In this document: positions 31,387 through 35,669 of the stretch, piece after piece | Numbering within the stretch: position 1 is the stretch's first letter | How the letters are laid out: the number at the start of each line of letters is the position of its first letter | Virus record (IMG/VR): IMGVR_UViG_2913177423_000001 | Location: 19,415 to 83,414 of that record | From: a virus | Taxonomy: Duplodnaviria; Heunggongvirae; Uroviricota; Caudoviricetes | Strand: one strand, 5' to 3' | DNA: 64,000 bases | Made by a program: the position numbers and the translations under genes | The notes under the pieces: model-generated | What the model was told of the DNA's origin: nothing | Database searches by the model: none | The model's input: the letters and a program-made list of their open reading frames with translations, nothing else

Positions 31387-31715
31387 TCACATCAGTAGCT
31401 TTGTTAACTCCCTCAATACCAGGTAGAAGAGTAACAAAAATACTGACGCCAGTATTTGCGTGGTCAATGAAGCGTTCATAAACAGATCAATTAGCATTAT
31501 TAATTCGAAAATAACATCCATGTCATTCGCTCAGTTTAATTTTTAATCTACTGCCAGTAAGTAATGAAGCTGGCCCCGCATAAAGATTAATGAAAGTCAC
31601 TTGTCACCAGTGAGGGGATTTATGAATCACATCTCCCTGAGCTGGTGGCCTGTCTGTTTCTCGCATTTCACACCCTGCATACAGTTTCCCCAGGTTATGA
31701 CTGAGGATTTTTGTT

Positions 31716-32045
31716 ATGGGCTATAGCAGACTCGACGATCGATACATTGAAGACGATATTCTGCGCGCACTGTTCCACCAGGAGATGATTAAACGGGTAT
31801 CGGAATATCACCCGGATAACTTCCAGTACACGATAAAAATTGATGAAGTCTATCGTTCAGACCTGGCTGCCTACCGGGCGTATGGGAACGCAGATTTACG
31901 CTGGGTATTCAGAGTGCTGGTGGGGCATGAATCAGAAATGGAAGAAATGCCCGCCGGGACCACGTTAACTCTCCCTGATGTGGCATGGCTGAGAAACAAG
32001 ATCCGTGATTATGCTGGCGCTGAACCGGAGATAAAAAATGCCTGA
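31716..32045 (+). CDS. hypothetical protein (109 aa); C-terminus weakly resembles LysM-like tail protein X
   Basis: ends ...AGTTLTLPDVAWL; stop overlaps next ORF start. Confidence 0.45.
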   Translation: MGYSRLDDRYIEDDILRALFHQEMIKRVSEYHPDNFQYTIKIDEVYRSDLAAYRAYGNADLRWVFRVLVGHESEMEEMPAGTTLTLPDVAWLRNKIRDYAGAEPEIKNA

Positions 32046-33234
32046 TTTCCTGAAAAACCAGGACGGGCGCTATATCACTGACGGCCTGTCCTCTAAGGAC
32101 TTCACGCGTATATTCGACCTTATCAGGAAAGAACAAACCCGTAAGCGCCGACAAGCTCACCGAACGCTTACACCTGGCAGACTGAGGAACAAATCCGCCG
32201 AAGATATTCTCAAGTTAGGGAAGAAGAAAGGCGGCACGTTCTTTACGCGAGACGATCTGAAAGGTTTCGAAAAGCTACGGAGTAAAACGCGCGAAAAATA
32301 TGACAGCAAGACGGCTGGCATTACATACGCCCAGCTGGTGGCGTCCAGCCAGGCTATCGATATTAAGCGTGCAAATAACGCCGTAGACGACGGTTCCGGT
32401 ATCAAAAGAGCTACGCCCGTATCTCTTCGCCACAACGTGATTAATATCCGCGTAGAAGCATCAGATATATCCGTCCACCAGCATCATATCGTCCGGATAC
32501 GCTTTGAAGAATGGGATCAGATGGTCGATGACATCGCAGAAGACGATAAATCAGCCCTGAAAGTCACTAAATCACTGTGTGCTGGGCGGGTATCTTTCGA
32601 TTGTGACTGTGGTCGTCATCAATACTGGTATCGTTACATCGCCACTGCGGGTAACTTTGCCCTGGCACCGCCAAAAGAATACGCCTATCCAAAAGTTCGC
32701 AACCCGAAGCTGCAAGGCGTCGCCTGTAAACACGTGATCCACTCAATGACGCGGTTACAGTCCGCCAGTTGGCAAATGAGTATTGCTCGTGCGCTACAAA
32801 AGGCTGCAACGCAAATTGCATTTGGTGACGATCGCCGCCGTACAACCAAACACTTCTCAAAAGAAGACGAGAAGGAGTTTAATCGCAATCGTAGCAGTAA
32901 AACGAACGTTGAAGCCGCCAAACGCGAATGGAGGCTCTATCAGAAACGCCAGGCCGCTTTAAGCACAAAACTGGCAAAGGACAACGGCAAGATTGACATG
33001 CTACGTGACCAGCTGACCAGGGCCAGAAAGTTGTCAGACGCACAGAAAAAACGAGCGGCAGCAAAAGAAGCGGCCTTGCAACGCGAGAAACAGAAAAACA
33101 AGGAGCTTCAGCAACGCCTTGCCGATCAGTTCGCACTGAAGAAGCAGGCGTTCATTGATGCGCTTGTCATGGCAGGAACGTCACCTGAGCAAGCTGAAAA
33201 AATGTTTATGGAGTATGTGAAGAAAGGTTCTTAA
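32038..33234 (+). CDS. SWIM-type zinc-finger protein with basic coiled-coil C-terminus
   Basis: CxC-N27-CxH pattern (FDCDCGRHQYW ... ACKHVIH). Confidence 0.55.
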   Translation: MPDFLKNQDGRYITDGLSSKDFTRIFDLIRKEQTRKRRQAHRTLTPGRLRNKSAEDILKLGKKKGGTFFTRDDLKGFEKLRSKTREKYDSKTAGITYAQLVASSQAIDIKRANNAVDDGSGIKRATPVSLRHNVINIRVEASDISVHQHHIVRIRFEEWDQMVDDIAEDDKSALKVTKSLCAGRVSFDCDCGRHQYWYRYIATAGNFALAPPKEYAYPKVRNPKLQGVACKHVIHSMTRLQSASWQMSIARALQKAATQIAFGDDRRRTTKHFSKEDEKEFNRNRSSKTNVEAAKREWRLYQKRQAALSTKLAKDNGKIDMLRDQLTRARKLSDAQKKRAAAKEAALQREKQKNKELQQRLADQFALKKQAFIDALVMAGTSPEQAEKMFMEYVKKGS

Positions 33235-33242
33235 TTTACAAC

Positions 33243-33266
33243 AAAGGCGGTTATCCCGCCTTTTAT
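33243..33266. terminator. bidirectional intrinsic terminator
   Basis: hairpin AAAGGCGG-TTATC-CCGCCTTT plus T-run. Confidence 0.65.
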
Positions 33267-33267
33267 A

Positions 33268-34017
33268 TTACTTGTCCTTTGATGTCGATTGAGACTCATA
33301 TATTGCCTCTACGTCATCTATTAGTTTATTAATACCCCACAATCCAGTGTCTTTATAAAAATCGCTTTCTTCAATTGCTTTTAATAAATCGGCAAAATCT
33401 TCTTGGGTGGAAATTCTTTTCTTTTTTGCTTTATATACATCGACAATTACTTTTATGCCGTGATACAGAGCCACTCTGGCACTCTCAATCTCTCTCTTCT
33501 TCTCTTCAATTGCAGACAATAATTTATATTGATCTTCTGTTTGCTTTTCTAGACTTAAAAGCTTGTTCTCTTTTTGCTTCAGGTTGATCTGCAATTCTTT
33601 TATTCTTGCTCTCTCTTCTAAATCAAACTCATAGTCAATGTATCTGATTCTTGCATAGTTCCTCCCTGTTGCTTTTGATATACACATTGTTATATAAGGC
33701 ATTACCACTGACGCAGTGGTTCCATATATAAATGGCATAACAAAATGAGCCACAAACGGAGATACAACGATGGGACCAATATAAGGAAAGTGATATTTCT
33801 CGCCAACCCATACTATAGACAATGTTGTATATATATCGTACTTTGATTTAAATAAAATAATAATATCCTGCCAGTTAACGACAAAAAAAGAAACCACAAC
33901 ATATGCAAACAACTTATTAAATAACTTGTCTCTTATGGCTTCTTCGATTGTGTTCTTGACTGTGACATTTTCATCTTTATTTTCTAGTGATGAATCTTTG
34001 CTCATATAAACAATCAA
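33268..34017 (-). CDS. AT-rich membrane protein with cytoplasmic coiled-coil domain
   Basis: about 32 percent GC against the element background; 2-3 N-terminal TM helices then charged coiled coil; start may be internal ATG at 34005. Confidence 0.55.
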   Translation of the reverse strand: MIVYMSKDSSLENKDENVTVKNTIEEAIRDKLFNKLFAYVVVSFFVVNWQDIIILFKSKYDIYTTLSIVWVGEKYHFPYIGPIVVSPFVAHFVMPFIYGTTASVVMPYITMCISKATGRNYARIRYIDYEFDLEERARIKELQINLKQKENKLLSLEKQTEDQYKLLSAIEEKKREIESARVALYHGIKVIVDVYKAKKKRISTQEDFADLLKAIEESDFYKDTGLWGINKLIDDVEAIYESQSTSKDK

Positions 34018-34066
34018 ACCTTCTTATCTTTATTTTTGGTAAAGGCGGTCATCCAGACCGCCAAAC

Positions 34067-34426
34067 TCAAACACCAACCAGGCTTTCAAGAGGAATACCA
34101 AACTGGGAATGTAAACGACGAATCATAGGTAACGTCAAATTTCGTGTCCCATTAAGCACTTCGTAAACACGGTTTGACTTACCAATTGCCGGTTCCAGAT
34201 CCTTCACTGTCAGCCCTTGCTGTTCCATACGAAACTTAATGGCTTCAATAGGTGATGGTGGCTCTATTGGGTAATGCTTTTTCTCGTACTCTTCAATGAG
34301 CAGGCACATTACTTCAAAGAAATCGCCTTCCGGTGTGTTCATTTCCGGTTCGTTATCGAACATCGGTTCGACCGCACGCAGTGCGGCCTCATAATCTTGT
34401 TCTGTACGGATAGGTTTAATGTTCAT
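34067..34426 (-). CDS. higA: HigA-family antitoxin (HTH-XRE)
   Basis: 119 aa; C-terminal HTH LTVKDLEPAIGKSNRVYEVLNGTRNLTLPMIRRL; directly downstream of HigB-like ORF. Confidence 0.7.
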   Translation of the reverse strand: MNIKPIRTEQDYEAALRAVEPMFDNEPEMNTPEGDFFEVMCLLIEEYEKKHYPIEPPSPIEAIKFRMEQQGLTVKDLEPAIGKSNRVYEVLNGTRNLTLPMIRRLHSQFGIPLESLVGV

Positions 34427-34429
34427 GAT

Positions 34430-34732
34430 TTACTCCAGTTCTATTGTATCCGCTTCAATGGCATCGTATTCCTTATGTGTTCCAATAAACTTAACGAACA
34501 TCCATCCTCGCTGATAAGCAATTGCGACAATTAACCTGTAATCATTTCCCTTAATATTGAACACCACGCGCCTGTTTTTAAGGATGCTGGCTGTCCGGTA
34601 CTGTTCTTTGATCTCAGCCGGATTTTTCCAGTCAGCCTTTGTTGCTTCATCAACCCATGCCTTTAATGGCTGTTCTGCATCGGGATTCTTCGCCCAGAAA
34701 TCCCTTAGTGTTTTTACCGAAATTATTTTCAT
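34430..34732 (-). CDS. higB: HigB-family toxin (RelE/ParE superfamily)
   Basis: MKIISVKTLRDFW ... RVVFNIKGNDYRLIVAIAY ... GTHKEYDAI; start at ATG with GAAGGA RBS. Confidence 0.7.
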   Translation of the reverse strand: MKIISVKTLRDFWAKNPDAEQPLKAWVDEATKADWKNPAEIKEQYRTASILKNRRVVFNIKGNDYRLIVAIAYQRGWMFVKFIGTHKEYDAIEADTIELE

Positions 34733-34835
34733 CACAGATTCCTTCTCTCTGAAAGCAGAGTAGTCCCAATATGGGACAATGTAAAGCACTTTAGTCCCAT
34801 GCTGGGATATGAATTGAAATCACAATCTCCAGACA

Positions 34836-35669
34836 ATGCACCTTCGATACCTGATACATCGACCTTTGAGGATGCTTATGGGCCGTTTTGACGAATGGTT
34901 TGCTGACGATGCAAACCTGGTAAGTAAGGAGTCAGAACATGACAGCACGCAGAGAGAAACGCCAGCGCCGATTGAAGAGGATGCAGGAGGCGCGCCGGAA
35001 CATGGCAATACCGGATCGGATTCATTCAGCATTCTGGAAGAGCAATCCACCGCCGAAGCTGATCGCCATGATAATTTCCCTGGTAGCGGCGGTAGTTTTA
35101 CTCCGGACACTGGAGAACCTGATATAGCCATTCTGCCATCTTCCCTGGCAGGCAGAGAACCAACTCCACAGCTAAAAACACGCTATAACGGGCATAAAGC
35201 CTTTAACGACCAGATCCGTGCTGACTGGATGTTAATTATTGAATCCAGCCCAGACGCGTTCCAGGCGCTCTTATACCGACCTGATGTCGGCACATATGGC
35301 GTGGTCAGCGACGAAACTGGAGAAGAGTCATTCACTGAACTGGATAACAACCAGCGCGAACTGACTTACCAGGAACCTGAAATCGTTTATGTGCTGGATA
35401 ACCCTGATGGGCGTGACTCTTTCCATGCTCTTGACTCAGACGGTGAGCAGGACGGTCTGACTGATGACGTCCTTATTCTGCGAATCGCCGCAAATAACGT
35501 ACCCGTCGGCTCAATTCTTGAGTGGAATGAAGAGATGGCAAATGGTGTAGCTCGCCGCTGGTGGTATGTACACCGTATTTTCAGTTACGGCACACAGCAT
35601 GTCGGCTCGCTTTACTACTGCATACCCGCAAGAAACTTTGATACGACTCAGAATGGGGTGATCGAGTAA
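34836..35669 (+). CDS. hypothetical acidic protein (start uncertain)
   Basis: long ORF, Asp/Glu-rich; first gene of rightward cluster. Confidence 0.5.
   Translation: MHLRYLIHRPLRMLMGRFDEWFADDANLVSKESEHDSTQRETPAPIEEDAGGAPEHGNTGSDSFSILEEQSTAEADRHDNFPGSGGSFTPDTGEPDIAILPSSLAGREPTPQLKTRYNGHKAFNDQIRADWMLIIESSPDAFQALLYRPDVGTYGVVSDETGEESFTELDNNQRELTYQEPEIVYVLDNPDGRDSFHALDSDGEQDGLTDDVLILRIAANNVPVGSILEWNEEMANGVARRWWYVHRIFSYGTQHVGSLYYCIPARNFDTTQNGVIE

What the first reader, a model, noticed from the sequence alone, without database searches (positions are those of the whole stretch)
32038..33234. SWIM zinc-finger protein with a long basic coiled-coil tail
The CxC-N27-CxH signature marks a SWIM-type zinc finger; the C-terminal 130 residues are a Lys/Arg/Gln-rich coiled coil. 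The gene is bounded by a strong terminator and its role is unclear (nucleic-acid binding, capsid-associated, or regulatory).
Basis: seen in the sequence. Interest (0 to 1): 0.4.

Follow-up and report, generated by a model that had tools for sequence, protein, structure and literature searches.

The report
Phage P1 gene 25 orthologue, SWIM-like
This gene is the counterpart of phage P1 gene 25 ("tail stability"), a very basic late protein whose core is an unusual long-loop SWIM-type zinc-finger domain; it is one of the few P1 morphogenesis proteins not modelled in the near-complete virion structures, so its job is still open.

Summary
The ORF at 32038-33234 (+) is real (398 aa). The window is a D6-like member of the P1 phage-plasmid family. 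The ORF is the orthologue of P1 gene 25 (98% identical to D6 orf74, 57% to P1 gp25, phrog_1722 E 4e-196).

The Cys/His motif exists, but it is C189-x-C191-x38-C230-x-H232, not N27. The four ligands and much of the 37-38-residue loop are invariant in 58 relatives at 21-50% identity to the query.

Pfam SWIM does not match the native protein. The SWIM reading is still supported at fold level:
- Foldseek hits phage "SWIM-type" proteins.
- A relative passes the Pfam cut-off (33 bits) once the loop is removed in silico.

The C-terminal third is a basic helical tail. The whole family is very basic (median pI 10).

The gene is almost always preceded by the baseplate "plug" gene 26, usually within a few bases or overlapping. 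The orthologues of neighbours gp26, gp7 and gp24 are in solved P1 virion structures; gp25 is not.

Best reading: an assembly factor or a few-copy, disordered component needed for stable tails. The mechanism is inferred, not shown. It is a known gene family with a modestly new domain assignment.

The parts
32038..33234 (+). Orthologue of phage P1 gene 25 ('tail stability' protein), 398 aa, pI 10.0, net charge +34
   Evidence: ORF. 97.7% identical to D6 orf74 and 56.7% to P1 gp25 over aa 1-334. phrog_1722 E 4e-196. 632 family representatives at 50% clustering.
32038..32310 (+). Basic N-terminal helical region (about aa 1-90), conserved in the P1-like clade
   Evidence: Alignment A1. AlphaFold helices 19-39, 46-60 and 71-87. 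Net charge of aa 1-60 is +7.
32299..32850 (+). SWIM-type alpha/beta zinc-finger domain (about aa 88-271): three strands, helices, a strand ending at CxC, a helix plus a long ordered loop, then a helix starting at CKH
32602..32733 (+). Zinc-ligand signature C189-x-C191-x38-C230-x-H232 with the conserved 38-residue inter-ligand loop (GRHQYWYRYIATAGNFALAPPKEYAYPKVRNPKLQGVA)
   Evidence: C189, C191, R199, E214, P218, N222, G227, C230, K231 and H232 are invariant in 58 diverse members.
32848..33231 (+). Basic Lys/Arg/Gln/Ala-rich helical (coiled-coil-like) C-terminal tail, aa 271-398
   Evidence: Composition. Predicted helices. Heptad register test and family-wide tail charge, median +11. Weak PDB profile matches, mostly to coiled coils.
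31716..32045 (+). Upstream partner gene: orthologue of P1 gene 26 (LysM/gpX-like baseplate 'plug'). Its stop overlaps the start of gene 25 by 8 nt.
   Evidence: phrog_1269 E 2e-35. PDB 9ay5_S 'Gp26' E 4e-17. A gp26-like gene is the upstream neighbour in 81 of the 91 diverse loci that have an upstream neighbour.
33243..33263 (.). Hairpin terminator between gene 25 and the convergent inserted cassette
34836..35669 (+). Orthologue of P1 gene 7 (connector 'stopper'). In P1 it directly follows gene 25; here a 1.6-kb cassette separates them.
   Evidence: phrog_1906. PDB 9ums_B 'Gp7' E 9e-44. P1 gene order. Role as stopper from PMC12810830.

Best explanation
This is the orthologue of phage P1 gene 25 in a D6-like P1-family phage-plasmid. 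It is a late morphogenesis protein, conserved across the wider group of myophages that share P1's head and tail genes.

Anatomy: basic N-terminal helices, then a SWIM-type zinc-binding alpha/beta domain, then a basic helical tail. The CxC and CxH halves of the SWIM motif are separated by an invariant 37-38-residue helix-plus-loop insertion.

Most likely mechanism (inferred): it acts as an assembly factor, or stays as a few-copy, disordered accessory, and is needed to produce stable tails that can join heads.
- The zinc domain and its invariant loop form a docking surface for an acidic partner. The first candidate is the co-translated baseplate plug gp26. The connector and terminator proteins gp7 and gp24 are other candidates.
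- The helical tail would oligomerise or bind a second partner.
- The protein is then released, or remains unordered.

Shown here: orthology, motif conservation, SWIM-like fold of the model, basic charge, gene linkage, and absence from solved virion models. Inferred: zinc binding, the partner, and the assembly role.
For: Orthology:
- (sequence matches to D6 orf74, P1 gp25 and phrog_1722).
- In P1 the gene lies in the late operon LP26: 26-25-7-24-6-5.

SWIM-type fold with conserved ligands and loop:
-.
- Precedent for a SWIM domain whose long insertion binds a partner: Shu2, n = 59 (PMC5727457).

Linkage to gp26:
- A gp26-like gene is the immediate upstream neighbour in 81 of 91 loci with an upstream neighbour (96 diverse loci analysed).
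- The gap is mostly +1 or -1 nt, with overlaps of up to 35 nt in others; it is an 8-nt overlap here. The flanks beyond the pair vary.

Charge:
- The family is uniformly basic: pI 9.3-10.6, median net charge +31.
- gp26, gp7 and gp24 are acidic: pI 4.4-5.1.

Not an ordered virion component:
- The near-complete P1 cryo-EM model lists gp26 (plug), gp7 (stopper) and gp24 (terminator) but never gp25 (PMC12810830; preprint).
- The window's gp26, gp7 and gp24 hit P1 chains in the PDB. gp25 hits nothing.

Virion trace and phenotype:
- Only 2 peptides were seen in P1 virion LC-MS/MS, and HHpred found no role (PMC9024508).
- The genetic label is 'tail stability' (P1 record).
- A CRISPRi knock-down lowers plating about 10-fold (PMC10695390).
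Against: - No direct evidence of any partner. No complex prediction could be run.
- Known tail chaperones are usually acidic (own knowledge). A conserved net charge of about +30 fits binding to a polyanion such as DNA at least as well.
- Two peptides in LC-MS/MS is the same count as gp7, a genuine 6-copy virion protein. So gp25 may be a real minor virion component rather than a released factor.
- Genes 26 and 25 were given different phenotypes in the classical genetics ('baseplate' versus 'tail stability'). That argues against gp25 being simply a gp26 chaperone.
- The 'tail stability' class includes gene 7, now known to be a head-side stopper. The phenotype therefore does not locate the step.
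- CRISPRi scored gene 25 as non-essential by that study's threshold.
Confidence: 0.45

Rival explanations
1. Few-copy internal virion protein that binds the packaged DNA, for example at its leading end in the connector or tail lumen, and is ejected with it. This would be a functional analogue (not a homologue) of T4 gp2 or Mu N. [quoted passage not shown]
For: - Conserved extreme basicity: pI about 10, net charge +14 to +51.
- A zinc-finger domain of a class predicted to bind DNA or protein (PMC5727457).
- It was detected in purified virions with as many peptides as the 6-copy stopper gp7.
- It is invisible in the published P1 reconstructions, as the asymmetric, flexible TMP also is.
- In P1 the gene is directly followed by the stopper gene 7 and shares its mutant class. 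gp7 is now known to be a head-side connector protein.
Against: - No sequence relation to T4 gp2 or Mu N.
- No DNA-binding domain was detected by Pfam.
- The most conserved linkage is to the baseplate plug gene, not to a head gene.
- Nothing shows DNA binding or ejection.
Confidence: 0.2
2. Partner or chaperone of the tape-measure protein. The basic helical tail would pair with the helical TMP in the acidic tube lumen, or hold it during tail initiation or termination.
For: - In one clade the gene pair is directly followed by an 890-951-aa ORF (L090-L093, L096).
- In their relative L087 the next large gene is a 939-aa SLT-domain protein of TMP size.
- In Xanthomonas phage Rb1 a 948-aa TMP/lysin-like gene lies just upstream.
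- The P1 TMP Sit is itself unresolved in the maps.
- Sit has 1140 aa, while the tube is about 2100 A long. That is 1.8 A per residue, more than an alpha-helix gives. This last point is my own inference.
Against: - In P1 and D6 the TMP gene sit lies far away. pmgB, not gene 25, sits in the chaperone position.
- Loss of a TMP chaperone should abolish tails rather than give unstable ones; the pmgB deletion gives no tails.
- The TMP adjacency is limited to some clades.
Confidence: 0.15
3. Nucleic-acid-binding regulator of late gene expression or translation, with no direct role in particle assembly.
For: It is a basic zinc-finger protein. One homologue is annotated 'transcriptional regulator MvaT' in Xanthomonas phage Rb1.
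Against: - The MvaT label has no support from PHROGs: the Rb1 protein matched only phrog_4315 and phrog_1722. None of the 58 diverse family members scanned against Pfam matched an MvaT/H-NS-type family among the top families listed.
- The gene sits in structural modules in all 96 loci.
- The classical phenotype is morphogenetic.
- It was found in virion preparations.
Confidence: 0.05
4. The Cys/His pattern is incidental and the protein is not a zinc protein.
For: Pfam SWIM does not match the native sequence. No metal data exist.
Against: The four ligands are invariant in 58 sequences at 21-50% identity to the query. Fold matches to SWIM proteins come from two libraries.
Confidence: 0.03

Closest known systems
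Phage P1 gp25 ('tail stability' protein; phrog_1722; D6 orf74)
   Same: Full-length homology, the same length, the same position after gene 26, the same motif, and a basic helical tail.
   Different: Only 57% identical to P1 gp25, and the last 60 or so residues are not alignable by tblastn. Here and in D6 the operon is interrupted after gene 25 by an opposite-strand cassette.
SWIM zinc finger (Pfam PF04434; ZSWIM8, Shu2/SWS1, phage 'SWIM-type domain' proteins)
   Same: CxC...CxH ligands, with the CxC at the end of a beta-strand and the CxH at the start of a helix. The fold matches ZSWIM8 and phage SWIM-type proteins.
   Different: The inter-ligand spacer is 37-38 residues, against the typical 6-16. 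Unlike most long spacers, it is the best-conserved part of the protein. Pfam's model is not matched natively. Shu2 (n = 59) is the known precedent for a long insertion, which it uses for partner binding (PMC5727457).
T4 gp2 (DNA end protector) and Mu N (DNA circularisation protein)
   Same: They are minor virion or tail-associated proteins, and T4 gp2 is visibly Lys-rich. T4 gene 2 lies next to gene 53, the counterpart of P1 gene 26.
   Different: No detectable sequence relation by hhalign (probability 0.1 for both). They have no SWIM motif.
Tail assembly chaperones / morphogenetic factors (P2 gpE/E', T4 gp51, P1 PmgB)
   Same: They are late structural-module genes that are needed for tails but are absent from the ordered virion.
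   Different: No homology. Gene 25 is not placed upstream of the TMP gene in P1 or D6, no frameshift product is evident, and it is strongly basic rather than acidic.

Membership tests
P1 gp25 family (phrog_1722 / phrog_4315) | Full-length sequence homology to P1 gp25 | tested here: met
   phrog_1722 E 4e-196 over aa 2-396. tblastn to P1 gp25: 56.7% identity, E 9e-113.
P1 gp25 family (phrog_1722 / phrog_4315) | Position directly downstream of the gene 26 (plug) homologue in a structural or late module | tested here: met
   8-nt overlap with the gp26 orthologue. The same holds in 81 of 91 loci with an upstream neighbour. P1 operon order is 26-25-7-24-6-5.
P1 gp25 family (phrog_1722 / phrog_4315) | Loss gives unstable tails (classical amber phenotype) | not testable with these tools
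   Known only from the annotation of the P1 record. The original paper, PMC256520, is not held.
SWIM zinc finger (PF04434 / PS50966) | CxCxnCxH signature with conserved ligands | tested here: met
   C189, C191, C230 and H232 are invariant in 58 diverse members. But n = 37-38, against the typical 6-16 (PMC5727457).
SWIM zinc finger (PF04434 / PS50966) | Match to the Pfam SWIM profile at or above the gathering score (19.6 bits) | tested here: not met
   No hit at E up to 10 for the query or 25 close homologues. 8 of 58 distant members are sub-threshold, best 17.8 bits. With the loop removed in silico: relative P0179 33.0 bits, query 12.3 bits.
SWIM zinc finger (PF04434 / PS50966) | SWIM-like three-dimensional fold | tested here: met
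SWIM zinc finger (PF04434 / PS50966) | Binds one zinc ion | not testable with these tools
   Needs metal analysis of purified protein.
Ordered structural protein of the P1-type virion | Modelled in virion cryo-EM maps or present among PDB chains | tested here: not met
   The PDB sequence search is empty for gp25, while gp7, gp26 and gp24 hit 9ums, 9ay5/9vzk and 8jan. gp25 is not listed in PMC12810830.
Coiled-coil protein | Heptad periodicity over a long helix; oligomerisation | tested here: inconclusive
   Long predicted helices. One register has 16 of 27 hydrophobic a/d positions. PDB matches to coiled coils are only weak. Oligomeric state is unknown.
T4 gp2 / Mu N DNA-end-binding proteins | Sequence or profile homology | tested here: not met
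   hhalign probability 0.1 for both.
Tail assembly chaperone (TAC) | Gene immediately upstream of the tape-measure gene; match to a Pfam Phage_TAC family | tested here: not met
   In P1 the gene upstream of sit is pmgB. One of 58 members gave a chance-level Phage_TAC_7 hit, E 0.027. Adjacency to a TMP-sized gene occurs only in some clades.

The most novel reading that the evidence does not exclude
gp25-type proteins are few-copy, DNA-binding proteins carried in the connector or tail channel and injected with the genome. The zinc domain with its invariant loop would grip the DNA end, and the helical tail would dimerise. They would then be candidates for the protein long reported to hold the ends of abortively transduced P1 DNA together. 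As far as I recall that protein has never been identified (Sandri and Berger 1980, recalled from memory, not checked here). Their absence from the published cryo-EM models would follow from low copy number and asymmetry.
Probability: 0.08. Interest if true: 0.75.

Novelty: new member of a known kind. Interest (0 to 1): 0.38.

Why it matters
P1 is the classic transducing phage, and its virion is now modelled almost completely. Gene 25 is one of the few classical morphogenesis genes with no molecular role and no place in the structure.

This work adds several testable facts about it:
- It carries a SWIM-type zinc domain with a long, invariant loop.
- It is uniformly very basic.
- It is locked to the plug gene 26 across hundreds of distant relatives.

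These facts give experimenters concrete handles: ligand and loop mutants, gp26, gp7 and gp24 pull-downs, and DNA-binding tests.

It also shows that Pfam's SWIM model misses a large phage family (632 clusters at 50% identity) because of one insertion.

For genome annotation, the label 'tail protein' should be read as a genetic label, not a structural one.

Tried and rejected
- Pfam and NCBIfam on the native protein and neighbours: nothing.
- Foldseek of the full-length model against the PDB: only noise, best E 0.3, to proteasome subunits. Trimming to the domain was needed.
- The afdb50 fold library was not available.
- PDB sequence and profile searches: mostly weak coiled-coil-type matches, and a chance-level match of the loop region to pectin lyase B, E 0.013.
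- Idea that gp26 plus gp25 is a split version of Mu N (LysM plus circularisation domain): rejected, hhalign probability 0.1.
- Homology to T4 gp2: rejected.
- Idea that the downstream family phrog_4597 (about 170 aa) is a short form of the stopper gp7: no support from BLASTP or hhalign (probability 0.4), and no Pfam or PDB match.
- Scaffolding-protein idea, prompted by the position just upstream of the capsid gene in ABMM1-like phages and by the coiled-coil tail: not favoured. The flanks of the 26-25 pair vary, and the P1 capsid protein carries its own N-terminal scaffold (PMC12810830).
- Search for a P1-type late promoter in front of gene 26: only a perfect match on the opposite strand was found.
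- The original phenotype paper (PMC256520) and the P1 genome paper (PMC523184) are not held.
- Literature search for SWIM in phage tails: nothing relevant.

Full report
**1. What is there**

The ORF at 32038-33234 on the + strand is real and encodes 398 aa. A GGAG lies 7 nt before the ATG. The start overlaps the stop codon of the upstream ORF (31716-32045) by 8 nt.

The surrounding DNA is 93% identical to Escherichia phage D6, a P1-like phage-plasmid. The cassette just downstream matches non-mobilizable E. coli and Salmonella plasmids of about 92 kb at up to 98% identity.

The protein is 97.7% identical to D6 orf74 ('similar to P1 gene 25') and 56.7% identical to P1 gp25 over residues 1-334. 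It matches phrog_1722 ('tail protein') end to end at E 4e-196. So the finding is the orthologue of P1 gene 25.

**2. The observation**

The motif is C189-x-C191-x38-C230-x-H232.

The protein has four cysteines. Three of them, plus H232, are invariant in 25 homologues down to 44% identity and in 58 cluster representatives at 21-50% identity to the query. The spacing is 37 or 38 in 54 of 58.

The spacer is not a variable linker. It is the most conserved stretch of the family: CxCGRHxYWYRYxATxGxxxxxPxExxFPKIRNPxLxGxxCKH. R199, E214, P218, N222, G227 and K231 are invariant.

Residues 271-398 hold 25% Lys+Arg, 9% Gln and 14% Ala, with a net charge of +14. They are predicted as long helices. The heptad signal is moderate, and PDB matches, mostly to coiled coils, are only weak.

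The hairpin at 33243-33263 exists, at -11.7 kcal/mol with an interrupted T-run. It lies between convergent genes.

**3. Is it a SWIM finger?**

By Pfam it is not. The query and 25 close homologues give no hit at all at E up to 10. Three other lines say the domain is SWIM-derived.

- (a) Among 58 distant members, 8 give sub-threshold SWIM hits. The best, P0179, scores 17.8 bits against the 19.6-bit cut-off. Its alignment runs from the CxC to the CxH and treats the spacer as an insertion.
- (b) I removed the middle of the spacer in silico. P0179 then scores 33.0 bits (E 4e-8), P0207 18.4, P0250 14.4, P1 gp25 13.0 and the query 12.3.
- (c) A model of residues 88-290, built on 72 sequences, has pLDDT 92.5 and pTM 0.89.
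  - Foldseek against predicted viral structures gives probability-1.0 hits that include 'SWIM-type domain-containing' proteins of phages Motura and BcepSauron.

Typical SWIM spacers are 6-16 residues. Shu2, with 59, is a solved precedent in which the insertion forms a partner-binding subdomain (PMC5727457).

I conclude that this is a long-loop SWIM variant. Zinc binding itself is inferred.

**4. Family and context**

A profile search of 1.84 billion cluster representatives finds 632 relatives (E up to 1e-3). Among the 150 best listed, most are about 330-450 aa, apart from some shorter, probably partial sequences.

The family is uniformly very basic: pI 9.3-10.6, median net charge +31. The neighbours gp26, gp7 and gp24 are acidic, pI 4.4-5.1.

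I analysed 96 diverse loci from IMG/VR and other assemblies.

- The immediate upstream neighbour is a gp26-like gene in 81 of the 91 loci that have one. The gap is mostly +1 or -1 nt, with overlaps in others.
- The downstream neighbour is gp7 in P1-like genomes. In most others (71 loci) it is an unrelated family of about 170 aa, phrog_4597.
- Further out, the flanks vary: terminase, fibre genes, capsid gene, portal, DarA-like genes, or a TMP-sized SLT protein.

The stable unit is therefore the 26-25 pair.

In P1 the genes 26-25-7-24-6-5 follow the late promoter LP26.

**5. What is known about the neighbours and about gp25**

Recent P1 cryo-EM work assigns roles to almost every virion protein (PMC12810830; preprint; PMC10304247).

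- gp26 is a six-fold 'plug' that glues the wedge ring to the hub.
- gp7 is the connector stopper.
- gp24 is the tail terminator.
- gp6 is the hub and gp5 the spike.

gp25 is never mentioned in these papers. I checked this independently. The window's gp7, gp26 and gp24 hit PDB chains 9ums_B, 9ay5_S/9vzk and 8jan_y. gp25 and its family profile hit nothing.

Other published data on gp25:

- P1 virion LC-MS/MS saw gp25 with 2 peptides, the same count as gp7. HHpred gave no role (PMC9024508).
- A CRISPRi knock-down of gene 25 lowers plating to 0.11 (PMC10695390).
- The classical label is 'tail stability'. Gene 7, which shares that label, turned out to be a head-side connector protein. The label therefore does not fix the step at which gp25 acts.

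**6. Mechanism**

Best-supported reading (about 0.45): an assembly factor, or a few-copy disordered accessory, that is needed to obtain stable, joinable tails.

- The SWIM domain and its invariant loop would be the docking surface for an acidic partner. The co-translated plug gp26 is the first candidate.
- The basic helical tail would serve oligomerisation or a second contact.

Rivals:

- A DNA-binding, injected minor virion protein, analogous but not homologous to T4 gp2 or Mu N (0.2).
- A partner or chaperone of the tape-measure protein (0.15).
- A regulator (0.05).
- No zinc site at all (0.03).

None of these can be separated further with sequence tools.

**7. Novelty and verdict**

The gene family is known and genetically named. 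This copy is one more member, so 'new member of a known kind'.

What appears to be new is the domain assignment (a long-loop SWIM variant), the family-wide basic charge, the tight 26-25 linkage, and the explicit point that gp25 is missing from the virion models. A full-text search found no paper linking SWIM to phage tails.

Interest is moderate. It gives a well-defined handle on one of the last unassigned P1 morphogenesis genes, but there is no surprising new system.

Noticed in passing
window 33268-34789, minus strand: A 1.6-kb opposite-strand cassette sits between genes 25 and 7, which are adjacent in one late operon in P1. It holds a 249-aa protein of unknown function (phrog_8191), a HigA-like HTH antitoxin (34067-34426) and a HigB-family toxin (34430-34789). 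D6 has a related but different version: only 74% of the 4-kb query was covered. Gene 7 would need read-through or its own promoter.
   Followed up: partly
window 31584-31602, minus strand: A perfect match to the P1 late-promoter pattern derived from ten annotated P1 late promoters (AAGTGACTTTCATTAATCT). It points away from gene 26, towards the small ORF at 31387-31521. No equally good late promoter was found on the + strand in front of gene 26. The + strand there carries an inverted repeat, TCACT-TGTCACC-AGTGA.
   Followed up: partly
L002 5699-6247, L003 7884-8387 and 69 other loci (for example L117 11016-11567): A family of about 170 aa (phrog_4597) directly follows the gp25-like gene in 71 of 96 diverse loci, where P1-like genomes have the stopper gp7. 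It has no Pfam or PDB match and no profile similarity to gp7. It may be the functional counterpart of the stopper or a third member of the module.
   Followed up: partly
window 4398-4474, 4479-4554, 6027-6102: Three tRNA genes: Arg-tct, Thr-tgt and a CAT-anticodon tRNA (Met, or Ile2 as in P1 trnI). P1 carries Asn, Thr and Ile tRNAs at the corresponding place, so the first one differs.
   Followed up: no
L170 40988-44410 (P1 sit) versus published tail dimensions: The P1 tape-measure protein Sit has 1140 aa, including a globular SLT domain. The tube is 52-53 rings, about 2100 A long. That needs 1.8 A per residue or more, which is more than an alpha-helix provides. Either part of Sit is extended or something else contributes to length determination.
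   Followed up: no
window 32542-32748 (aa 169-237 of the protein): phmmer aligns the loop region to pectin lyase B (1qcx_A, residues 186-252) at E 0.013, sharing C..H.YW.Y and R.PK.QG. This is most likely chance, since that structure is a beta-helix with no zinc site.
   Followed up: no
L085 8028-9533 (P0152, 501 aa) and other long members (P0228 455 aa, P0141 446 aa): Some family members carry 50-100 extra C-terminal residues with no Pfam match. The length of the basic tail ranges from 83 to 248 residues across the family.
   Followed up: no
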